Virus genome (UHGV): UHGV-1699724
DNA from: a virus
Length of the DNA stretch: 17,225 nucleotides
Direction: 5' to 3' (one strand)
Shown here: in pieces, positions 2,942 to 14,776 of the stretch
How positions within the stretch are numbered: position 1 is the first letter of the stretch
Layout of the letters: each line of letters starts with the position of its first letter
The notes under the pieces: model-generated
What the model saw: only the letters and a program-made list of their open reading frames with translations
Database searches by the model: none
Told to the model about the DNA's origin: nothing
Position numbers and translations under genes: made by a program

Positions 2942-4020
2942 CAGAACGGGTCCTCCTGTACTCTGGCTTTTTTCTTTTTCCGCGCGCCGGGGGCTTCTGG
3001 TTCAGGCAGATAAGCATCAGGTGGGCCGACACGGATTTCCGTCAGGGTGCCGTTCTGGTCCTGAGTAAACGTGACTTCCGAGACAAGCAGTTCGGTATTG
3101 TCGAAACCACAGACCGGATCGAAGACAATCACCCGCTGGTTGGGCTGCCACAGCGTACCGTTACCCTGTCGCCAGCCCTGCACCACATAGGTGGTTTCAT
3201 CCGTCCGCGCCGCCCGTTGCCGGGCTTCAAAGTCAGCACGCGCAATACAGCCTGCCCCCGTGGCCTGCCCTGTCTGCCTGATATACATCGGACGGTAACG
3301 GGCAATAAATGCGTCCTCTGTGCGGGCCCGCAGCGCGGTGGTGGTGGCCTCACCGAAATCATCGTCGTTTCCGGCACGCTGCCCCGCCACCTGGTAAACT
3401 GAAAACCGCTCCCGGATACTCTTCTCCGTATCACAGGAAAGGATGTTTTCCCCAAGTACCAGCGCGGTATGTGCCCGCGTTGAGCCAATACCGCCAATCA
3501 CCAGCCTGCCGTGCGGGTCGTCATAAGCCAGCGCCTGCTGCTGACCGAGTATTTTGTTGATCACCTCGATCACCGTTTCACCGTGATCAGGCTGGACATC
3601 AGGAATAACACCCGACGGCGCATCGCTGTTCACCACCTCAATGCCGAAAGGCGCAGCAAGCGCCTGCGCAATCTGTACCAGCGATCGTCCGTTAAACTGT
3701 GTCGGTTCGGCTGTACAGTCAATCAGGTCAGCAGTCAGACTACGTCCGGCAATACCGGTGCTGACCGAACGGGCATCGTAACGAACGGGGGTCGCCTCCA
3801 CCCAGCCGGTGATCACCAGCTCATCACCAATTAGCACTTCCACTTTTGAACCATTTTTAATGCGCGGCTGAAGCGTGGTGATACCCTCATCTCCCGGCCA
3901 CTGGCGGGTGATCTCCACGTTGAAATCCCGCGCCAGCCGTTCAATACCGGCACCGATGCGCACCGATGTCCAGCCATTCCACTCCCGGCCATTTACCCGT
4001 AGCGTGACGTTATCGTTCAT
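2941..4020 (-). CDS. Baseplate hub protein (Mu P / P2 gpD-like)
   Basis: 359-aa ORF with ATGA overlap to the upstream DNA-circularization gene at 4017-4020. Size and position match Mu gp44 / P2 gpD-type hub proteins. Confidence 0.8.
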   Translation of the reverse strand: MNDNVTLRVNGREWNGWTSVRIGAGIERLARDFNVEITRQWPGDEGITTLQPRIKNGSKVEVLIGDELVITGWVEATPVRYDARSVSTGIAGRSLTADLIDCTAEPTQFNGRSLVQIAQALAAPFGIEVVNSDAPSGVIPDVQPDHGETVIEVINKILGQQQALAYDDPHGRLVIGGIGSTRAHTALVLGENILSCDTEKSIRERFSVYQVAGQRAGNDDDFGEATTTALRARTEDAFIARYRPMYIRQTGQATGAGCIARADFEARQRAARTDETTYVVQGWRQGNGTLWQPNQRVIVFDPVCGFDNTELLVSEVTFTQDQNGTLTEIRVGPPDAYLPEPEAPGARKKKKARVQEDPF

Positions 4021-5345
4021 TGCACTGGCACCTTCAGAGGGTTCACCGGCACAAAGCCGGGATGCGTAATGGCATTACGCCGGATAATGTCCGCGTCACG
4101 CGCCGCGTTATCAAACCAGGTCGCCGCCAGCACCAGCGCGGGTAAAACCTCATCCGGTGTGCGATGAATGATCCGTGCAGACTGTTCAAGGCGCGTGTTG
4201 ATATCCGCATTCAGATCTGCTTTCACCCGGCGCAGCGCCAGAAACAGCGCATCACTGGTTGTACGGGACAACTCCTTATCAATTGCCGTATTCAGTGTGT
4301 CGCGAATGTCGGTCAGTTCTTCCCACGTTGGCAGGTCAACCGTGTTTTTCACCGCAGGTGCATTGTTCAGTGCCGGATGCGTGACGGAAGGCCAGCCAGT
4401 GCTCTGCGCGGGTGTTGTTGACTGCCCCACTGTGGCATTCTGCATCACCGCGGAAGTTGTGGGCGCAGGCAATCGTGTGACGGCATACGCCGCTTCGCTG
4501 ATTGCGGTCGTACGAAGGGTGCTGGCAACCACGTTACGCTGCTGCGTAGCCGTGGCGGTGGTTTTACTGTCCGTTTTCCAGATGCCGCGGGGTTGCAGAT
4601 TGCTGCCGAGACTGACCCTGGAAAACGTTTTGATCATGGTGACCAGGTCGCTGGCGTTACCATAAAGGCGTTTCCCGGTACGCCACATTTTCTGCACCTG
4701 CTCAACGAAATTTTTGCCTGACGATGGCGGCGACAGAAGTACCGAGATATCCCCCTGCAATAGCCTGGCGGCATCCGATACGGCAGAATCCACCACTTTC
4801 ATCGCATCAGAAACATACCCAAGCATTGTGCTGGCATTACCGACGACGTCGTTCTGCACAAAATCTGCCACGCCATCGATACTGAAACTACTGAAACTGT
4901 CACTGATGCAGTCATCCAGTGCAGAACAGGATGACATCAGCGTCTGCGCCGTCGCCGCACCTGATGTGGGGTAAGAGAGTTCTCCCGCTTCGACAAACTT
5001 CAGGTCAAAGCGGACAATACGCCCTTCACTCTTCGATGTGCTGACCCGAACCTCTCCGTCAACACAGACTTTCAGCTCACCGTAAGTCGGATGGACAAGC
5101 GTGCCGGGACCGGGTTTATTCAGCGCGTCAATCAGGCGATCGCGCTGGTCAAAGCAGTCATCTCCCACCACATAAGCCGTGATGGACGGGCGGAAAGTGA
5201 TTTTCCCCAGGTCTTCGGTATAGGGTTTGTCGCGGTTCGGGTATTCGTGCGTTTCCACACGACGACCGGTTCCCGCAATTTCTTCTTCAACCTTAAACGG
5301 CACACCGCGAAATGACGCGTCCTGAAGTCTGTCTTTCCACGTCAT
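4017..5345 (-). CDS. DNA circularization protein (Mu N / gp43-like)
   Basis: N-terminal region (MTWKDRLQDASFRGVPFKVEEE...HEYPNRDKPYTEDLG) resembles Mu N-family proteins as I recall them. The track ORF starts at 5387, but its first 14 codons overlap a terminator hairpin and T-tract; the ATG at 5345 has a GGAG motif 6 nt upstream and is the more likely start. Confidence 0.75.
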   Translation of the reverse strand: MTWKDRLQDASFRGVPFKVEEEIAGTGRRVETHEYPNRDKPYTEDLGKITFRPSITAYVVGDDCFDQRDRLIDALNKPGPGTLVHPTYGELKVCVDGEVRVSTSKSEGRIVRFDLKFVEAGELSYPTSGAATAQTLMSSCSALDDCISDSFSSFSIDGVADFVQNDVVGNASTMLGYVSDAMKVVDSAVSDAARLLQGDISVLLSPPSSGKNFVEQVQKMWRTGKRLYGNASDLVTMIKTFSRVSLGSNLQPRGIWKTDSKTTATATQQRNVVASTLRTTAISEAAYAVTRLPAPTTSAVMQNATVGQSTTPAQSTGWPSVTHPALNNAPAVKNTVDLPTWEELTDIRDTLNTAIDKELSRTTSDALFLALRRVKADLNADINTRLEQSARIIHRTPDEVLPALVLAATWFDNAARDADIIRRNAITHPGFVPVNPLKVPVQ

Positions 5346-5405: not shown

Positions 5406-7241
5406 TTACCTGCCAAAGCGCGTATAGCCAACATCATGGCTGACATCAAAACCGCTGGATCGCGTTTCCATAACCCGCATACCCGGAGGCGAATTCACAA
5501 AAGAGACCTTGATCTCACCATCAACTTTTGGCGCAGAAGCTTTGTTAATCATGAAGGGATTCGGGCCTGTGGCATCGGAGGCGTTGTTTGACTGAGCCAG
5601 ATCTACCGCCGGATAAGGTGTGTATCCCCGTGCCGGTATTCCCGTCCCATAAGCATCATAAGCACCCGCGCCCCACTGCGCAGAGTTAATGGCATCGACC
5701 GTGTCACCGGAACTGTCGGTAAACCACTCAATAATTGGCTTCAGCTTGTCCCACATATCCTGAAACCACTTAACAACCGGTCCCCAGTTATTGATCACCA
5801 TCCCCAGCGGCGACCAGGCAAAAACCTTCTTAAGAAGTTCCCGGCCAGTCTCAAAATGAGGACCAATGGTTTCCCAGAGCTTCTTGAAATAAGGTCCGAC
5901 AACATCCCAGTTAGTGATAATTAATCCCGCAGCCAGGGCTATCGCCGTCGCAATCATGCCAATCGGCGTCATCGACATGATCCTGCTGACAATGCTGATG
6001 GCACTGCCCACGCCCATCAATCCCAGTTTCAGAATCGCAAGACCGGCAGCAAGCCCGACGACGCCGCGAATAACCCGGGGATTTTCATCCACAAACTTCG
6101 TGAATTTCTCCCCCAACTCCCCCAGCCACTGCGTGATGTTCTTAGCGTCACCAGAAAATGCGCCGCCAATAGCCGCAAGGCCGTTAGTTGCGGTCCCCGT
6201 CATTGCCTCCCACAGGTTGGACAGCGTACCAAGCTGAGCCTGAACACGTTTATTCAGGCTGGCCTGTTTATTCATCTTCTGCTGGATCTGATCGTAGCCA
6301 TCCTTTCCTTTATCGATCAGGGCATTGACCACCTGAAGGGTTTCGGCATCATCACCAAATATTGCCTTAAGTACGCCTGTTCGCTTAACGTCGGTCAGTT
6401 TTCGCAACTTTGCCAGTTGCCTGAACATGTTATCAAGACCGCCAAAACTCCCTTTGCCGTCAGTAAAATCGAGCTGTACCCCGAGTTTCTGGCGAGCCAT
6501 AACTTTATTGACGTCCCTGATTTTCTTAACGCTTAATCCGGACTGGATAACTTTTCGCAGGGCATTACCTGCCGACTCCCCGTTCATCCCCATCTGATCC
6601 ATCATGACGCTGATGGGGGCAAGGCTCTGTGCAGCCTGAAGACCGTCCTTGTTCACCATCTTCAGAACAGAACTGGTTTTAGTGAAGAAGGACAACATGT
6701 TGGTATCGTCAACGCCCAGATAAAACGCCTTCTGGATAGTGTCGAACAGCCCCATCATGTCTTCTGACGCCGTTCCGGTAGCATCCTGCATTTTTGCGGC
6801 AAACTCAGCAGCCGCTTCCGGTGTTTTTTTCAGTTGTACCGCAAGATATGCAGTCGCTTTACCCACACCGCCAAGAATGTTTTCTGCCGGGATCCCCTGA
6901 CGCACCAGCATCTGCATCATGTTCTGAAAATCAGCCGTTGTACCGGGTAGCTGGTTACCCAGGCCAATAGCCAGTTTATTGATGTCCTGAAAGCTCTTTC
7001 CAACCTCGCCGTTCGCATCCATCATGGCGACTTTCAGCCCGGTGGCGGCGTTTTCCTGATCGGCATAAGATTTCAGGGAAAGCGTCAGACCCGCTGCCAG
7101 TCCGCCCCCAAGCGCCAGCCCACCCTGTGACGCTTCTTCCGCCTGGCGTTTAAATCCCCGGATTTTCTTTTGCATTTTCGACAGCGCGGGAGAAAGCCTG
7201 TCGACACCGGTGATCAACGCCTTAAGCTCAAATTCAGCCAT
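5406..7241 (-). CDS. Tail tape measure protein
   Basis: 611-aa ORF directly after the chaperone pair. Ala/Gly/Leu/Gln-rich helical N-terminal two-thirds and a long hydrophobic segment (VIRGVVGLAAGLAILKLGLMGVGSAISIVSRIMSMTPIGMIATAIALAAGLIITNW) are typical of tape measure proteins. AGGAGA lies 9 nt upstream of the ATG. Confidence 0.85.
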   Translation of the reverse strand: MAEFELKALITGVDRLSPALSKMQKKIRGFKRQAEEASQGGLALGGGLAAGLTLSLKSYADQENAATGLKVAMMDANGEVGKSFQDINKLAIGLGNQLPGTTADFQNMMQMLVRQGIPAENILGGVGKATAYLAVQLKKTPEAAAEFAAKMQDATGTASEDMMGLFDTIQKAFYLGVDDTNMLSFFTKTSSVLKMVNKDGLQAAQSLAPISVMMDQMGMNGESAGNALRKVIQSGLSVKKIRDVNKVMARQKLGVQLDFTDGKGSFGGLDNMFRQLAKLRKLTDVKRTGVLKAIFGDDAETLQVVNALIDKGKDGYDQIQQKMNKQASLNKRVQAQLGTLSNLWEAMTGTATNGLAAIGGAFSGDAKNITQWLGELGEKFTKFVDENPRVIRGVVGLAAGLAILKLGLMGVGSAISIVSRIMSMTPIGMIATAIALAAGLIITNWDVVGPYFKKLWETIGPHFETGRELLKKVFAWSPLGMVINNWGPVVKWFQDMWDKLKPIIEWFTDSSGDTVDAINSAQWGAGAYDAYGTGIPARGYTPYPAVDLAQSNNASDATGPNPFMINKASAPKVDGEIKVSFVNSPPGMRVMETRSSGFDVSHDVGYTRFGR

Positions 7242-7652
7242 GTGTGCGTTTCTCCTGCTCTATCCTGTTTGCCTGACTGACCAGCAAGGGAATTTCACTG
7301 ATCGGCATATTCAGCAATTCGAAGGGATTAATGCGCCAGTAGCTGGCGCAGTCAAAGAAGCGATCAGTGAGGTATTCAGCCGTCAGGCCTGGAGGAAAAA
7401 ACCAGCCACAAGCCACGCCGCTGCATTCAGGTCTGCCGGAGACATCTGGTCGACAGAGCTTTGCGGCACTTTCGCCAGCCGCACAATGTATTTCGACACC
7501 ACATGCGCCAGAAGTCTGACGGACTCATCCTGATTCATCTGGTAAGGATACCCCAGCTCGCGGACATCCTTCCCGGTGGGTTCATCAAACTCCAGTACGG
7601 AGAGTGTCTCACCATGAGCGATAATCGGTTTCTTTAACTCAAGCTCTTTCAT
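7234..7652 (-). CDS. Tail assembly chaperone, predicted -1 frameshift fusion product (G-T-like, about 139 aa)
   Basis: The -1 frame is open from the slippery site to a TGA at 7234-7236, which overlaps the tape measure start. Fusion would read ...WLVAGFF then PPGLTAEYLTDRFFDCASYWRINPFELLNMPISEIPLLVSQANRIEQEKRTHG. The track's 60-aa ORF 7234..7416 is this extension called with an internal GTG start. Confidence 0.55.
7383..7652 (-). CDS. Tail assembly chaperone (Mu gp41 / lambda gpG-like), frame-0 product
   Basis: 89-aa acidic ORF between the tail tube and tape measure genes, with a TAATG overlap to the tube gene. This is the canonical position of the frameshifting chaperone. Confidence 0.75.
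   Translation of the reverse strand: MKELELKKPIIAHGETLSVLEFDEPTGKDVRELGYPYQMNQDESVRLLAHVVSKYIVRLAKVPQSSVDQMSPADLNAAAWLVAGFFLQA
7395..7401 (-). promoter_or_regulatory. Candidate -1 programmed ribosomal frameshift slippery heptamer T_TTT_TTC
   Basis: Plus strand GAAAAAA at 7395-7401 is TTTTTTC on the coding strand, in the X_XXY_YYZ register of the chaperone frame (GGT TTT TTC), 6 codons before its stop. Confidence 0.55.
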
Positions 7653-8008
7653 TACTGGTAATCCCCTTCTTCACCGTGGAACTCAAGATCAACCGTGCCT
7701 TCTTCGGCATTATGGTTCGCTTCTCCGTGCAGCCAGGCGGACGACAGTACATAGACCTGACCGTTCGCCAGCTCGGCAGTGATGGTCATCTCATCAGACG
7801 AGGTGATTTTGCTTACCGGAAAATTCTTCGGCACCTTGAAGGTCCCTTTGACATAAGGCGCACGGTGAGTTTCCTTGCGGTCCACTGAACCGTCCAGGCC
7901 GATGATGTCATCATTGACCGTCCTGTTCATGGGCACCTCAATGCCGCCGGTCAGCGATAGCTGCTGACCGTCAATTTTGAAATAACAGGTTCCCCCGATA
8001 CGGGCCAT
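7652..8008 (-). CDS. Tail tube protein (Mu M / gp40-like)
   Basis: 118-aa ORF directly after the sheath gene (1-nt stop/start overlap at 8008), with GAGGAG upstream. Size and position are as expected for a myovirus tube protein. Confidence 0.8.
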   Translation of the reverse strand: MARIGGTCYFKIDGQQLSLTGGIEVPMNRTVNDDIIGLDGSVDRKETHRAPYVKGTFKVPKNFPVSKITSSDEMTITAELANGQVYVLSSAWLHGEANHNAEEGTVDLEFHGEEGDYQ

Positions 8009-9504
8009 TATGCAGACTCCTCTGAATACTGAAGACGGAACTGGTTAACCACGGCAAAGACACGCAACTGGTTAACATAGTCAGGCGGGAACAGCGTGTT
8101 CAGACGGTTCGGATCGCTGGCATCACGCTCCACAACCAGGTACTGCTTAAACAGTTCGTAGTTTTCCACGATCCCCGCACGCTCAAGCTGACGGTAGGTT
8201 GCCAGCAGTTCCCCTTTGATCACCGCCGGGGTGACAATCGCCTGACCGGGACCAAAGCGGGTACCGTCACTGGCAAGCTTGTGACGCCCGTACTTACTGG
8301 TAATGACGGATTTCAGTTTGCGCAGTACATACGCGCTGGTATGCAGCGTCTCGCTGTCGAGGTAGCTGTTATCCGCAACACCGTAAGCGTTTTTCCTGTA
8401 CGTGGTGACATCACGCTGAATGCGCAGCACCCCGCTTTCGACATACGCCGTTGCCACGCCATGAGACAGCAGGGTCTGTTGTTCGGTCATCGTGAACCGT
8501 TTCCCCTTCGGCGCAGGCAGCATACCCACCAGCTCACCGGTCTGCGTGGGACGTGCCGGATCGTTGCGAATAAACACCGCTGCGCGGGCGGTACGGCTTG
8601 CCGCCAGCTCGTCGGCAGGCGTCTGGGTCTCTTTTTCGTATCCCGCCAGGGTAATGTGCTGCTGGTTAAACTGGTCACCTGCGGTCACCAGTTCTGACAG
8701 CGTGCCGATCTTTGCCGTATACACATGACCATACAGCTGACGCGCATAGCTCCAGCGACCGCTGGTATCGTTCATCTCTGTCACCAGCGTGTTAACGGAG
8801 GCCGTGTCGTTGAACGGCAGGCCAATATAATCAAACGGCTCATCCGCCATTGCAGTCACCGCGCCGGTGAGAACCGGAGCGCCCGTTCCGGCGCTCCCCG
8901 TCGCCACAGCAATCTGTACGCCCGCTGGCAGCACTTCGCCCCCACCAAAGCCGTAGTAATTGAGGCTGACAGGAATTTCATTCCCGCAAAGCCCCTTATG
9001 ACGCGCGGTCAGCGTGACCACGCCTGCCGAAGATGAGGCCGTAAACGGCAGGGCCGGAACGGCATTAATGGCATCTTTGATACTGCCGGCAATCGTCGTG
9101 ACGTTATCGCCGTTGGTCACCGGTGCCTGCACGCGGGTACGTCCCACATACACATTCACCGTGCCGGTTTCGGTTGCCGCCCCGGTCACCGTCAGCGTAA
9201 CCGTTGCCGCCGCGCCTGTGGCTTCCGGAACGGCAATCACATACAGCTCGCCAAACGGGTCAGTCTGGCGATAAGCCTCGACCATACGCGCCAGCTGACT
9301 TCCCGCACCACAAATCTGGCGTGCATAGTCTGCCGACGGCATCAGCACCAGACTGTTGGCAACAATCTCTGCACCGTTATTGGCATGACCAATCAGCAGC
9401 GATGCTCCGCTGTCCTGTGCAGTATTCGCCGCCGAGTTATCCATTTCCGCATAAAACAACGGAACCAGCGTATTCGACGGAATGGTGTTAAAGCTTATCG
9501 TCAT
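8008..9504 (-). CDS. Contractile tail sheath protein (Mu L / gp39-like)
   Basis: 498-aa ORF; N-terminus MTISFNTIPSNTLVPLFYAEMDNS... resembles Mu-type sheath proteins as I recall them. Followed by tube, chaperone and tape measure in canonical order. Confidence 0.85.
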   Translation of the reverse strand: MTISFNTIPSNTLVPLFYAEMDNSAANTAQDSGASLLIGHANNGAEIVANSLVLMPSADYARQICGAGSQLARMVEAYRQTDPFGELYVIAVPEATGAAATVTLTVTGAATETGTVNVYVGRTRVQAPVTNGDNVTTIAGSIKDAINAVPALPFTASSSAGVVTLTARHKGLCGNEIPVSLNYYGFGGGEVLPAGVQIAVATGSAGTGAPVLTGAVTAMADEPFDYIGLPFNDTASVNTLVTEMNDTSGRWSYARQLYGHVYTAKIGTLSELVTAGDQFNQQHITLAGYEKETQTPADELAASRTARAAVFIRNDPARPTQTGELVGMLPAPKGKRFTMTEQQTLLSHGVATAYVESGVLRIQRDVTTYRKNAYGVADNSYLDSETLHTSAYVLRKLKSVITSKYGRHKLASDGTRFGPGQAIVTPAVIKGELLATYRQLERAGIVENYELFKQYLVVERDASDPNRLNTLFPPDYVNQLRVFAVVNQFRLQYSEESA

Positions 9505-10227: not shown

Positions 10228-10730
10228 CTGTGTCGTCGCTCCGGCTTCAGTGATTTACGCAATTCCCGTGCCAGAAAATAGCGTGTCCAGCTGCGGTTCT
10301 TTTCAAGCGTTTCCACCATGAAGTTATTACGTGGAGCCAGTCGCCAGCCGCTGCCACCGGATGCACCACGATGATGACTACGACGACGTTTTGCTCCTCC
10401 CCGGACACCAAAAAACAGAAACGCCGGATAGAAGTCACCAGAGATCATCCGGTTCCCCTTCCCGTTGCGCTGGTTAGGGGCAATGCGTGTCATAAAACCG
10501 GCTCGCTTTTTACTGGCTCTCGGCACCATATAACCAATCGAACGAGCCAGGCGTCCGGTCTGATAACCGGGGTTTTCACCCGGTGCCGACCGCGCACGGC
10601 GCATCACCAGCCGACGGGCATCACGCATATGACGCTGCCCAATCGTGACAAACGCCCGCCGGACACGGGCGCGGTTAAAGCGCATCTCGGCGGGCTGCTG
10701 AACATCAACGTGAAAAAAGGGAGTCTCCAT
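10224..10730 (-). CDS. HK97 gp10-family phage protein (head-tail joining / tail completion)
   Basis: 168-aa basic ORF with motifs GRLARSIGY, DFYPAFLFFGVRGG and RNNFMVETLE that resemble the HK97 gp10 family pattern. GGAGG lies 5 nt upstream of the ATG. Confidence 0.65.
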   Translation of the reverse strand: METPFFHVDVQQPAEMRFNRARVRRAFVTIGQRHMRDARRLVMRRARSAPGENPGYQTGRLARSIGYMVPRASKKRAGFMTRIAPNQRNGKGNRMISGDFYPAFLFFGVRGGAKRRRSHHRGASGGSGWRLAPRNNFMVETLEKNRSWTRYFLARELRKSLKPERRHR

Positions 10731-11686: not shown

Positions 11687-12892
11687 TTACGCCACTGCAA
11701 TCTTCAGCAGTTTGATGGCCTGCGAATCGACCAGCATGCCGCCGGTGCGTTTGGTGGTATAAAAACCGACAAACGGTTTATTGGTGTACGGGTCACGCAG
11801 AATGCGGGTGCCGATACGGTCAACGATGGTGTAACCCCGTTTGAAGTTACCAAATGCAATGGCTTTCGCATCAGCGGCGATATCCGGCATCTGTTCGTTT
11901 TCAGCGATACCGTAACCCGCCAGAGAGGACGGCTGCCCCAGCTCCAGCCCCGGACGCCACAGATAGTTACCCTCGCTGTCTTTCAGCAGACGGATGGCAA
12001 ACAGGCTATTGTTGTTCATCATGAACTTCGCGCCGGTGCGGTGTGCCTTACGCAGCGTGTAAATCAGTTTGATAATGGCGTCTGCGGTCACCGCCGTCGC
12101 GTCGCCGGATACAATATGCTGAAGTTTGCCGAACGCCCGGACCTTATCGGTTTCATCCGTGGATTCATACGCCAGGAACCCTTTCGGCTTCTTGGTACCA
12201 TCGCCGGTGGTAAAGGCAATTTCTTCCTGTTCGGCAAATTCGGTTGCCAGCTCGCTGTTGATCCATGCTTCCACGTTGAAAAAGGCATCATCCAGCATTT
12301 TCTGGGTGGCCTGCGGGTTACCGTAGATTTCCCCCATGAAAGGTTCAATCAGGCCCAGTTTTGAGGTGGCAGTCTGGGAGCGCGCGTCAGTCTCGCCAAC
12401 CCATCCGGAAGCCGTGCCGCCCAGATTCACCAGTTTTTTGTAGTCGGAACCACCAACGGTGATCACCGTGGCTTCCTGGCGCATCACCACTTCATCTTTC
12501 AGCAGGGTGAGAATGTTGCGATCCAGTGCTTCCGGCACGGCATAGCCGCCGTCTTCATCGGTGCCCACCTGTAATGCCTTGCGCTCCAGATCGCGCAGAC
12601 CATCTTCACGGCCTTTACGCAGGAAGCCCACAAACGCTTCTTTATGCTCGGTGGCCAGTTTATTTTGCGCACCACCTGCCGGACGTTTCAGCTCAAGCAG
12701 CTCTTTTTCAAGATCGCTTTTGAGGTTTTCCAGCTCGCTGAGTTTCCCGTTCAGGGTTTCCACCTGCCCGGCAAGCTTGCCTTTTTCCTGCTCAATCGCA
12801 TCCACGCGCTTGTCGTTCTTTGCTTTGAAGTCGTCAAACTTCTGCTGCAGCTCCTGCGCGACCTGTTCGACATCTTTAATATCTACCGCCAT
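11687..12892 (-). CDS. Major capsid protein, HK97 fold with N-terminal coiled-coil delta/scaffold domain
   Basis: 401-aa ORF. The first ~100 residues are heptad-like and charged (KLAGQVETLNGKLSELENLKSDLEKELLELK), followed by a capsid body. AGGAGA lies 6 nt upstream of the ATG, directly after the protease gene. Confidence 0.9.
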   Translation of the reverse strand: MAVDIKDVEQVAQELQQKFDDFKAKNDKRVDAIEQEKGKLAGQVETLNGKLSELENLKSDLEKELLELKRPAGGAQNKLATEHKEAFVGFLRKGREDGLRDLERKALQVGTDEDGGYAVPEALDRNILTLLKDEVVMRQEATVITVGGSDYKKLVNLGGTASGWVGETDARSQTATSKLGLIEPFMGEIYGNPQATQKMLDDAFFNVEAWINSELATEFAEQEEIAFTTGDGTKKPKGFLAYESTDETDKVRAFGKLQHIVSGDATAVTADAIIKLIYTLRKAHRTGAKFMMNNNSLFAIRLLKDSEGNYLWRPGLELGQPSSLAGYGIAENEQMPDIAADAKAIAFGNFKRGYTIVDRIGTRILRDPYTNKPFVGFYTTKRTGGMLVDSQAIKLLKIAVA

Positions 12893-13557: not shown

Positions 13558-14776
13558 TGGCGTTATCCTTCTGCTTACCGGCTTTACTGCCATCGGAGGG
13601 TTTCGTGGTCATGTTCATCGGTGTGAGATAGACATCACCACCGGGACGCGGATTCATATCTTCCAGGTCGCGGCAGTCATTGGGAGAGTAAATTCCCCAA
13701 TTGATCCCGGTAGCGTAGGCTTCAAAACGGGACTTCATATCCCCGCGCAGTAAGGCCCCGGCGTTAAATTTGGCGTAATAAACGCCCTGCTTACTTTTTC
13801 GTACCAGTCCGGTGTTGATCCGCTGCTCAATGCGGGTCAGATACGGCACCAGTGAATAGTTGATAAATCCCAGCCCCAGCTCTTCGATATTGTTGAAGGT
13901 GGCGCGATCGGTGTTCTGCACCATGTGCAATGGCACCCGGAACAGACGACAGATTTCTTCAAGCTGAAACTTGCGGGTTTCCAGGAACTGGCTGTCCTCG
14001 GCGTTCAGCGCCATCGACTTCCAGTCCAGCCCCATCTCAAGGATCATCGGGCGGTGAGCATTGCCAAGCCCGGTGTGACGCTCCTCAAAATCTTTCTTCA
14101 GGCGCTCATAAGCCTGATCTGACAGCGTCTGCTCTGTACGCAACACACCCGACGTCACCGCGCCATTGCTGAACAGTCTGGCCCCGTGCTCTTCGGTCGC
14201 TGCCGCCAGCGATATTGCCTCGCGGGCATAGGCGATGGGATTCAGCCCCACCAGTCCGTCCAGCGTCAGCGTGCGCACATGCCAGATATCTTCCTGGCTC
14301 AGTACATCCGTGGAGCCATCCGGGAATGTGACCTGATAGACCGGCTCCCAGCTACTGTTAAGCTTCGGTACCACACAGCCGGGATCGACGGGCAGCAGTT
14401 CAGCCACTTCGCCAAATGCTTTCACTTTGTAGGCGTAAAAGTTTCCCCGCAGGCACAGACAGGTGACCACCAGCTCCCAGAACTCCTGCGGCGTCATATA
14501 GCCATTGGGATGCGTGGAGATCAGCTTATGCAGACGTTCGCCAGTGGCTCTCTGCTTCAGGCTGCCGTTCAGGTGATACAGGTTGCAGGGCAACATCCCG
14601 ACCGACTCCGCCAGCACCCTGACACAGGAAAAAACCGCCGTCAGTCGCATGGCCCGCTGGCTGCTGATCTGCTTTCCGGTATAGGTGTCGTAGGACAACC
14701 CGATAGCATCCGCCAGCTCTGCTGGCGTGGTCACCGGTGCGTCACTTTTTCGTTGAAATAATCCCGAAAAGAACAC
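13535..14776 (-). CDS. Portal protein (HK97 family)
   Basis: 413-aa ORF placed after the large terminase and before the protease. GTG start with GGAGGT 5 nt upstream; the start overlaps the stop of the small membrane ORF (TAGTG). Confidence 0.85.
   Translation of the reverse strand: MFFSGLFQRKSDAPVTTPAELADAIGLSYDTYTGKQISSQRAMRLTAVFSCVRVLAESVGMLPCNLYHLNGSLKQRATGERLHKLISTHPNGYMTPQEFWELVVTCLCLRGNFYAYKVKAFGEVAELLPVDPGCVVPKLNSSWEPVYQVTFPDGSTDVLSQEDIWHVRTLTLDGLVGLNPIAYAREAISLAAATEEHGARLFSNGAVTSGVLRTEQTLSDQAYERLKKDFEERHTGLGNAHRPMILEMGLDWKSMALNAEDSQFLETRKFQLEEICRLFRVPLHMVQNTDRATFNNIEELGLGFINYSLVPYLTRIEQRINTGLVRKSKQGVYYAKFNAGALLRGDMKSRFEAYATGINWGIYSPNDCRDLEDMNPRPGGDVYLTPMNMTTKPSDGSKAGKQKDNANADETTS

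What the first reader, a model, noticed from the sequence alone, without database searches (positions are those of the whole stretch)
7234..7652. Programmed -1 frameshift in the tail assembly chaperone, upstream of the tape measure gene
The chaperone frame contains GGT TTT TTC, giving the slippery heptamer T_TTT_TTC six codons before its stop. The -1 frame is open from that point for 53 codons and ends in a TGA that overlaps the tape measure start. This is the conserved G/GT-type arrangement of tailed phages and predicts a fusion protein of about 139 aa that a simple ORF caller splits into an 89-aa gene plus a GTG-initiated fragment. A GCGCCAG-cta-CTGGCGC hairpin sits about 40 nt downstream, further than the usual 5-9 nt spacer, so the stimulatory element is unclear.
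Basis: partly seen in the sequence, partly recalled or inferred. Interest (0 to 1): 0.5.

Follow-up and report, generated by a model that had tools for sequence, protein, structure and literature searches.

The report
Tail chaperone programmed -1 frameshift site
This is a well-supported but ordinary example of the programmed ribosomal slip that long-tailed phages use to make two tail-assembly chaperones from one gene; gene callers miss it in this prophage family, and a conserved RNA hairpin downstream of it is unexplained.

Summary
All the features lie on the minus strand. An 89-aa tail assembly chaperone gene (7652->7383, Pfam PF10109) sits between the tail tube gene and the tape measure gene of an SfV/SfII-like E. 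coli/Shigella prophage. It carries GGT TTT TTC, an in-phase T_TTT_TTC heptamer (7401->7395), three sense codons before its TGA. The -1 frame then stays open for 53 codons. It ends in a TGA (7236-7234) that overlaps the tape measure ATG (7241) as ATGGCTGA, giving a 139-aa fusion.

The in-phase T-rich heptamer is kept in nearly all of about 200 related loci, down to 33-38% protein identity, and phage P2 has it at the same Pfam profile position. The -1 extension is under purifying selection (dN/dS about 0.10). The other two frames are full of stops, and many homologues have no start codon in the -1 ORF.

This is the known P2 E/E+E' and lambda G/GT type of recoding. It is not annotated in the SfV, SfII or SfI records or by PGAP, and the fragment is filed as phrog_32181, "unknown function".

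The hairpin is real and frozen at synonymous sites. At 44 nt from the heptamer it is too far away to be a canonical stimulator, and its role is open.

The parts
7383..7652 (-). Tail assembly chaperone gene, zero frame (89 aa plus TGA); counterpart of P2 gpE and lambda gpG
   Evidence: ORF list and translation. Pfam PF10109 Phage_TAC_7, E = 6.8e-15, 55.3 bits against a cut-off of 25, residues 4-86. PGAP names it 'phage tail assembly protein'.
7395..7401 (-). Slippery heptamer T_TTT_TTC in X_XXY_YYZ phase (zero-frame codons GGT TTT TTC)
   Evidence: Sequence. It is the only in-phase heptamer in the window followed by a long -1 ORF. It is conserved in phase in homologues.
7234..7395 (-). -1 frame extension (E'-like segment): 53 codons PPGLTAE...EKRTHG plus TGA. 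Fusion CDS = join(7652..7395, 7395..7234) on the minus strand, 139 aa
   Evidence: Translation. dN/dS about 0.10 in this frame, with stops in the other two frames. Matches phrog_32181, E = 4e-40.
7414..7416 (-). GTG that ORF callers use to start the 60-aa fragment; probably not a real start
   Evidence: It is not conserved and has no Shine-Dalgarno sequence. Many homologues have no start codon upstream of the conserved peptide, and two have none at all.
7332..7350 (-). Conserved RNA hairpin UGCGCCAG-CUA-CUGGCGCA (8 bp, extendable to 7328-7355), 44 nt downstream of the heptamer, coding C-A-S-Y-W-R of the extension
   Evidence: Fold and inverted repeat. The stem codons are frozen at synonymous sites while the loop and flanks vary. 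The stem is perfect in 59 of 61 distinct homologous sequences, and the two changes give G-U pairs.
5406..7241 (-). Tape measure protein gene (611 aa); its ATG lies inside the last codons of the -1 ORF, and its Shine-Dalgarno GGAG is at 7252-7255
   Evidence: Pfam PF10145, annotation of identical prophages, coordinates.
7652..8008 (-). Tail tube gene immediately upstream (context)
   Evidence: Pfam PF10618, E = 2.4e-33.
8008..9504 (-). Tail sheath gene (context: contractile, Mu-like tail module)
   Evidence: Pfam PF04984, PF17482 and PF17481. The SfV record notes 'similar to phage Mu GpL'.

Best explanation
The tail assembly chaperone mRNA of this SfV/SfII-like prophage carries a programmed -1 ribosomal frameshift site.

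Most ribosomes read GGU UUU UUC CUC CAG GCC UGA and release the 89-aa chaperone. A minority slip back one base while the two tRNA-Phe occupy UUU and UUC. Both re-pair with UUU. These ribosomes then read CCU CCA GGC..., add a conserved 53-aa domain, and terminate at a UGA that overlaps the tape measure AUG. The result is a 139-aa fusion made in a fixed low ratio to the short form.

By analogy with lambda gpG/gpGT and P2 gpE/gpE+E', the shared N-terminal part would coat the tape measure protein. The extension would recruit the tube protein, so that the tube polymerises to the length the tape measure sets. Neither chaperone would end up in the virion.

Shown here: the anatomy, its deep conservation, purifying selection on the -1 frame, and the absence of an independent start. 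Inferred: that the slip is ribosomal, its efficiency, and the assembly role.
For: Anatomy and context:
- Sequence and phase are as described.
- The gene sits between the tube and tape measure genes.

Conservation of the heptamer:
- In-phase GGTTTTTT[C/T] is present in all 20 genome loci from more than 12 genera, including Derxia at 38% identity.
- It is in 80 of 80 near-identical viral loci and 79 of 80 loci of an Enterobacter-type clade.
- In 19 environmental loci at 33-46% identity that have complete 3' ends, 16 carry T_TTT_TTY, and their -1 extensions are 46-65 aa.
- SfIV has a different chaperone but carries T_TTT_TTT and a homologous 52-aa extension.

The -1 frame is coding:
- In the stretch past the zero-frame stop, dN/dS is about 0.10. 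The -1 frame has no stops in 11 sequences, against 26 and 47 in the other two frames.

No independent start:
- Most homologues have no ATG, GTG or TTG upstream of the conserved peptide. L015 and L023 have none anywhere in the -1 ORF.

Comparison with P2:
- The P2 record annotates E+E' as a -1 frameshift at GGT TTT TTG, with a 57-aa extension and the same 8-nt overlap with gene T.
- PF10109 ends at profile position 78/79 exactly at the slip site in both P2 and the window protein.

Literature:
- U_UUU_UUC is a measured -1 shifter in E. coli: 0.12% alone and 7.6% with the IS3 pseudoknot (PMC4066793 supplement).
- The class is described in PMC5009743 and PMC3091744.
Against: - There is no direct protein or reporter evidence for this family.
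- The bare heptamer gives only about 0.1% in a reporter, and no canonical stimulator was found. No structure is conserved at 5-9 nt, and no Shine-Dalgarno-like element is conserved upstream. The efficiency therefore cannot be predicted.
- The extension does not match the P2 E' Pfam family PF06528.
- One natural variant (L165) has GGG instead of GGT, which weakens the heptamer.
Confidence: 0.9

Rival explanations
1. Transcriptional slippage. RNA polymerase adds one extra U in the T6 run, so a subpopulation of mRNAs encodes the fusion in a single frame. The protein product (…GFFPPGL…) would be identical.
For: The site is a homopolymeric T6 run, and T7 in some homologues. The bare heptamer is a weak ribosomal shifter in reporters. 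Nothing computed here can separate the two routes at the protein level.
Against: Productive slippage in bacteria typically needs runs of about 9 or more A/T (own knowledge). Here the run is 6-7 nt and has not lengthened in any lineage. Its codon phase (X_XXY_YYZ) is kept in nearly all of about 200 loci, including P2. Phase matters for tRNA re-pairing but not for polymerase slippage. The P2 record annotates its event as translational.
Confidence: 0.06
2. The -1 ORF is an independent small gene (60 aa, starting at GTG 7416), as some annotations and phrog_32181 treat it.
For: ORF callers report it. One phage record annotates it as a CDS. PHROGs holds it as its own family.
Against: The GTG is not conserved and has no Shine-Dalgarno sequence. 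In most homologues no start codon precedes the conserved peptide, and two have none in the whole -1 ORF. The upstream limit of the open -1 frame varies from 7 to 44 codons, while the heptamer position is fixed.
Confidence: 0.02
3. There is no functional recoding. The heptamer simply encodes a conserved Gly-Phe-Phe, and the downstream open frame is a chance or vestigial feature.
For: G-F-F is conserved at the protein level, so part of the nucleotide conservation is explained by coding.
Against: Gly is GGT in essentially all loci despite four-fold degeneracy. The stretch between the zero-frame stop and the tape measure start is under strong purifying selection in the -1 frame only. It encodes a domain recognisable in a different chaperone lineage, SfIV.
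Confidence: 0.02

Closest known systems
Phage P2 gpE / gpE+E' -1 frameshift (FETUD tail operon; Christie et al. 2002, as cited in PMC3091744)
   Same: Both belong to contractile-tail phages. The N-terminal Pfam family is the same (PF10109), with the slip at the same profile position. The GGT TTT TTN context is the same. The zero-frame stop follows within a few codons. The -1 extension is 53-57 aa, and its stop overlaps the tape measure ATG by 8 nt.
   Different: The last base of the heptamer is C, not G. The extension is not a detectable member of PF06528: there was no hmmscan hit, hhalign probability was 4%, and BLASTP E = 0.65. The surrounding tail module is Mu-like rather than P2-like. P2 lacks the window family's hairpin and has a different distal stem.
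Phage lambda gpG / gpGT (Levin et al. 1993; Xu et al. 2004, 2013, 2014, as summarised in PMC5009743)
   Same: The chaperone gene has the same position upstream of the tape measure gene. [quoted passage not shown]
   Different: Lambda uses G_GGA_AAG and has a non-contractile tail. No sequence similarity was detected.
Phage Mu gp41
   Same: Both sit in a Mu-like tail module (sheath, tube, chaperone, tape measure). Mu gp41 also matches PF10109, though weakly.
   Different: Mu gp41 is 144 aa, belongs mainly to PF23746, and has no in-phase T-run at the equivalent place. Xu et al. are reported to propose a -2 shift for Mu (PMC2628397).
Stimulated bacterial -1 frameshift sites (dnaX, IS911, IS3)
   Same: Tandem tRNA slippage on an X_XXY_YYZ heptamer. 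U_UUU_UUC is used by some IS elements (PMC4066793).
   Different: Those sites have an upstream Shine-Dalgarno-like element and/or a hairpin or pseudoknot 5-9 nt downstream. Here the only conserved structure lies 44 nt downstream.

Membership tests
Tail assembly chaperone -1 programmed frameshift (lambda G/GT and P2 E/E+E' class, Xu et al. 2004) | Two overlapping ORFs located between the major tail/tube gene and the tape measure gene | tested here: met
   Tube gene 7652-8008, chaperone 7383-7652, -1 ORF 7234-7395, tape measure 5406-7241.
Tail assembly chaperone -1 programmed frameshift (lambda G/GT and P2 E/E+E' class, Xu et al. 2004) | [quoted passage not shown] | tested here: met
   T_TTT_TTC at 7401->7395, three codons before the stop.
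Tail assembly chaperone -1 programmed frameshift (lambda G/GT and P2 E/E+E' class, Xu et al. 2004) | Slip site and open -1 frame conserved in homologues despite sequence divergence | tested here: met
   About 200 loci down to 33-38% identity. One exception, L165, has GGG.
Tail assembly chaperone -1 programmed frameshift (lambda G/GT and P2 E/E+E' class, Xu et al. 2004) | Downstream ORF is coding but lacks its own translation start | tested here: met
   dN/dS about 0.10. No conserved start codon, and none at all in L015 and L023.
Tail assembly chaperone -1 programmed frameshift (lambda G/GT and P2 E/E+E' class, Xu et al. 2004) | Fusion protein actually made at a low fixed ratio, and both products needed for tail assembly | not testable with these tools
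   Needs proteomics, a reporter or genetics. No paper in the held library reports this for SfV-like phages.
Pfam PF10109 Phage_TAC_7 (P2 E, Mu gp41 type chaperone domain) | Score above the gathering threshold | tested here: met
   55.3 bits against a cut-off of 25, E = 6.8e-15.
Pfam PF06528 Phage_P2_GpE (the E' extension of P2) | Match of the -1 extension to the family profile | tested here: not met
   No hit at E <= 10 for three extensions. P2 E+E' scores 76 bits. hhalign of the extension alignment against P2 E' gives probability 4%.
Canonical stimulated bacterial -1 frameshift cassette (dnaX / IS3-family type) | Stimulatory hairpin or pseudoknot 5-9 nt downstream and/or a Shine-Dalgarno-like element upstream | tested here: not met
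   The conserved hairpin starts 44 nt downstream. Structures nearer the site differ between homologues. Upstream codons vary at synonymous sites and show no conserved Shine-Dalgarno-like motif.
Transcriptional slippage sites | Long homopolymeric A/T run, typically about 9 or more | tested here: not met
   The run is 6 T in the window and 6-7 in homologues.

The most novel reading that the evidence does not exclude
The hairpin 44 nt downstream of the slip site is frozen at synonymous sites. Possibly together with the different 10-bp stem that begins about 51 nt downstream in P2-like phages, it could be an unrecognised functional RNA part of the E/E+E'-type recoding cassette.

Candidate roles:
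- It modulates frameshifting at a distance.
- It protects the rarely translated spacer before the tape measure gene from Rho or RNases.
- It gates tape measure initiation. The CUCC right after the heptamer is complementary to the tape measure Shine-Dalgarno sequence.

Published descriptions of P2-type sites report no downstream structure, although at least one of those screens covered only 60 nt.
Probability: 0.15. Interest if true: 0.55.

Novelty: new member of a known kind. Interest (0 to 1): 0.27.

Why it matters
The practical value is for annotation. This prophage family matches 1063 of the 5426 complete E. coli genomes searched. The SfV, SfII and SfI records and PGAP annotate only the 89-aa gene and leave about 140 nt unassigned. 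Where the fragment is called at all, it is a "hypothetical protein" (phrog_32181, unknown function). No correct 139-aa fusion appeared among the listed hits of a 5.8-billion-protein search. Joining the two pieces gives that orphan family a function.

Biologically, it extends the P2-type GGT-TTT-TTN site to Mu-like tail modules and to distant environmental phages. It also sharpens an open point. The bare heptamer is a poor shifter in reporters, yet no canonical stimulator is present, and the only conserved RNA element lies 44 nt away.

Tried and rejected
1. The full-length 'fusion' proteins P0001-P0006 from the protein search looked like natural in-frame fusions. They are singletons from error-ridden assemblies with several indels, so they are not evidence.
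2. Pfam, NCBIfam and PDB sequence searches of the extension gave nothing meaningful. The PDB hits to light-harvesting proteins are spurious.
3. Rfam and the promoter/terminator scans of 7000-7800 found nothing.
4. I considered a large nested RNA structure as a stimulator starting 6 nt after the heptamer.
   - The window has perfect inverted repeats of 10 nt (7295-7304/7361-7370) and 7 nt (7271-7277/7382-7388).
   - The minimum-free-energy fold is not better than shuffles (z = -0.95).
   - Covariation on 10 sequences was marginal.
   - With 61 distinct sequences many pairs are broken, for example 26% and 69% paired at two positions.
   - I rejected it as a conserved element.
5. I considered a ribosome-collision model for the distal hairpin. 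By my own arithmetic on footprint spacing, the trailing ribosome lands several nucleotides past the slip site in the window family and farther past it in P2. I did not adopt it.
6. The test of the P2 distal stem stalled. The 80 viral loci are 99-100% identical and too uniform to show constraint.
7. The primary papers (Christie 2002, Xu 2004) are not held, and the PRFect supplement does not list the Xu phages. I could not check whether SfV itself was already listed in Xu et al.
8. The first viral-contig scan returned only 100%-identical loci. I obtained diversity by querying with divergent homologues instead.
Full report
**What the window is.** The region matches the late operon of the SfV/SfII/SfI group of Shigella and E. 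coli temperate phages at 98.5-99.5% DNA identity. It is 100% identical over 551 nt to a prophage in E. coli SC476, and related sequence occurs in 1063 of 5426 complete E. coli genomes. All genes run on the minus strand. In order they are terminase, portal, protease and capsid, then tail terminator, sheath (8008-9504), tube (7652-8008), an 89-aa 'phage tail assembly protein' (7383-7652), the tape measure gene (5406-7241) and the baseplate genes.

**Checking the observation.** The minus strand reads ...GCT GGT TTT TTC CTC CAG GCC TGA.
- The heptamer T_TTT_TTC lies at 7401->7395 in exact X_XXY_YYZ phase.
- The zero-frame stop is at 7385-7383.
- After a -1 slip the frame reads PPGLTAEYLTDRFFDCASYWRINPFELLNMPISEIPLLVSQANRIEQEKRTHG (53 codons). 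It stops at 7236-7234, 2 nt past the tape measure ATG (7241-7239), as ATGGCTGA.
- The fusion is 139 aa.
- Mechanical ORF calling gives the 89-aa gene plus a 60-aa GTG fragment.
- TTTTTTC as a string is frequent in the window (8 hits). Among 5420 codons of the window's genes there are only six in-phase X_XXY_YYZ heptamers, and this is the only one followed by a long open -1 frame. That frame is 53 codons, against a background median of 10; 6% of positions reach 53.

**Is the -1 frame really used?** I collected homologous loci from one genome per species (20 loci) and from viral contigs.
- GGTTTTTT[C/T] is in phase in every genome locus, from Shigella through Citrobacter, Kluyvera, Edwardsiella, Erwinia, Pantoea and Kosakonia to the betaproteobacterium Derxia at 38% identity.
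- It is present in 80 of 80 near-identical viral loci and in 79 of 80 loci of an Enterobacter-type clade.
- Environmental relatives at 33-46% identity mostly keep T_TTT_TTY encoding Phe-Phe, followed by a 46-65 codon -1 extension.
- In the family sampled the extension is 50-54 aa and conserved (F-D-C-A-x-Y-W-R-I-N-P...Q-A-N-R-I). It ends within a few bases of the tape measure start.
- SfIV carries an unrelated-looking chaperone, yet it has T_TTT_TTT and a homologous 52-aa extension.
- In the stretch beyond the zero-frame stop, where only the -1 frame could be coding, dN/dS is about 0.10 at dS about 1.1. That frame has no stops in 11 sequences, against 26 and 47 in the other two.
- The -1 ORF has no conserved start. 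The window's GTG at 7416 is absent from most relatives, and L015 and L023 have no ATG, GTG or TTG anywhere in it.

The conserved peptide can therefore only be reached from the chaperone frame.

**Comparison with known cases.**
- The P2 record annotates E+E' as a -1 frameshift. Its site is GGT TTT TTG, six codons before the E stop, with a 57-aa extension whose stop overlaps gene T by 8 nt. That is the same layout.
- Pfam PF10109 matches both N-terminal parts and ends at profile position 78/79 exactly at the slip site in each.
- The extension differs. P2 E' is PF06528, and the window's extension does not match it. It is instead phrog_32181, 'unknown function'.
- Mu gp41 has no such site. Xu et al. 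are reported to propose a -2 shift there (PMC2628397).
- The class as a whole is textbook: lambda G/GT at about 30:1, and P2 two- to three-fold more efficient (PMC5009743; PMC3091744).
- None of the SfV, SfII, SfI, SfIV or PGAP annotations joins the two pieces. No clean 139-aa fusion appears among the listed hits of a search of 5.8 billion proteins.
- I found no paper in the held library describing the site in this phage group. I could not read Xu et al. 2004 to see whether SfV is in their list.

**Mechanism.** The best-supported reading is tandem -1 slippage of the two tRNA-Phe on U_UUU_UUC.
- In E. coli reporters this heptamer gives 0.12% alone, 0.89% with the IS911 signals and 7.6% with the IS3 pseudoknot. 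P2's U_UUU_UUG gives 0.12% alone (PMC4066793 supplement).
- P2 is nevertheless reported to shift at several percent, so context must matter there, and probably here too.
- I found no conserved Shine-Dalgarno-like element upstream. The codons before GGT vary freely at synonymous sites.
- No structure is conserved 5-9 nt downstream. Different homologues fold differently there.
- Transcriptional slippage on T6 would give the same protein and cannot be excluded. The short run and the strict conservation of codon phase argue for the ribosomal route.

**The hairpin.** UGCGCCAG-CUA-CUGGCGCA (7350->7332) is real and can be extended by four more pairs. It starts 44 nt after the heptamer.
- It codes Cys-Ala-Ser-Tyr-Trp-Arg in the most conserved part of the extension.
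- In 10 diverged sequences the four degenerate stem codons (TGC, GCC, TAC, CGC) never vary. The loop codon (AGC/AGT/AGA) and the neighbouring codons do vary.
- By my own hypergeometric estimate on the data, all four stem codons falling among the six frozen codons out of 19 eligible has p of about 0.004.
- In 61 distinct sequences the stem is perfect in 59. The two changes (TAC->TAT, CGC->TGC) give G-U pairs on the mRNA strand.
- The hairpin recurs in a second sub-clade (L022, L023, L017) and partly in L189 at 46% identity. It is absent from L018, L021, SfIV and Derxia.

So it appears to be under nucleotide-level selection. Its distance rules out the usual mechanism, in which the structure sits at the ribosome's mRNA entrance.

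**Other structures around the hairpin.**
- P2, PSP3, Kp4882-2 and a Yersinia phage share a different 10-bp stem starting about 51 nt downstream of their site. The P2 sample I could fetch was too uniform to test this.
- Larger nested helices predicted in the window are not conserved.
- CUCC directly after the heptamer is complementary to the tape measure Shine-Dalgarno GGAG (7255-7252), and this is conserved. Both sides are constrained by other functions, so it proves nothing.

**Verdict.** This is a new, unannotated member of a well-known kind of recoding site. It is valuable for annotation but not surprising to a specialist. The one open thread is the conserved distal hairpin.

Noticed in passing
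window 7332-7350 (minus strand): The 8-bp hairpin has stem codons frozen at synonymous sites across 61 distinct homologous sequences. The only two stem changes give G-U pairs. It lies 44 nt from the slip site and its function is unknown.
   Followed up: partly
window 7295-7304 / 7361-7370 and 7271-7277 / 7382-7388: Two further perfect inverted repeats (10 nt and 7 nt) are nested around the hairpin, giving a large predicted structure that starts 6 nt after the heptamer. They are not conserved in homologues and the fold is no better than shuffles.
   Followed up: yes
window 7391-7394 and 7252-7255 (minus strand): CUCC immediately after the heptamer is complementary to the tape measure Shine-Dalgarno GGAG about 140 nt downstream, and this is conserved in 58-61 of 61 sequences. 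It could couple tape measure initiation to chaperone translation, but both sites are constrained by other functions.
   Followed up: partly
L105 (phage P2) about 51-93 nt after its TTTTTTG; also L288, L289, L290: P2-like phages share a 10-bp stem CUGAUGGCGG / CCGCC(A/G)UCAG enclosing a smaller hairpin, in the part of E' coding ADVAVIFHWPPSE. Published notes say P2-type sites have no downstream structure; at least one such screen covered only 60 nt.
   Followed up: partly
L165 (IMG/VR viral contig), heptamer position: One natural variant has GGG instead of GGT before TTT TTC, leaving G_TTT_TTC. It is the only heptamer change seen among the closely related loci; it could mark a decaying prophage or a tolerated weaker site.
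   Followed up: no
L004 (E. coli SC476 prophage) 3808-5014, compared with window 11687-12892: In the otherwise near-identical SC476 prophage, PGAP marks the major capsid gene as a frameshifted pseudogene. The window has an intact 401-aa ORF there.
   Followed up: no
phrog_32181; ON470584.1 CDS URC08943.1 (L002 2185-2367): The -1 fragment exists in databases as a free-standing 'hypothetical protein' family of unknown function. It is most likely an annotation artefact of the unjoined frameshift.
   Followed up: yes
window, both strands: TTTTTTC occurs 8 times against 2.7 expected from shuffles (2 of 200 shuffles reach 8). The two other copies on the coding strand (10712-10718, 14628-14634) are out of phase for -1 slippage.
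   Followed up: partly
L190, L191, L204 and L295 (distant relatives): A few distant chaperones use other motifs at the equivalent place: G_TTT_TTT, G_GGT_TTT, and G_GGA_AAG in Mannheimia P2-like phages. The site is therefore kept while the heptamer can change.
   Followed up: no
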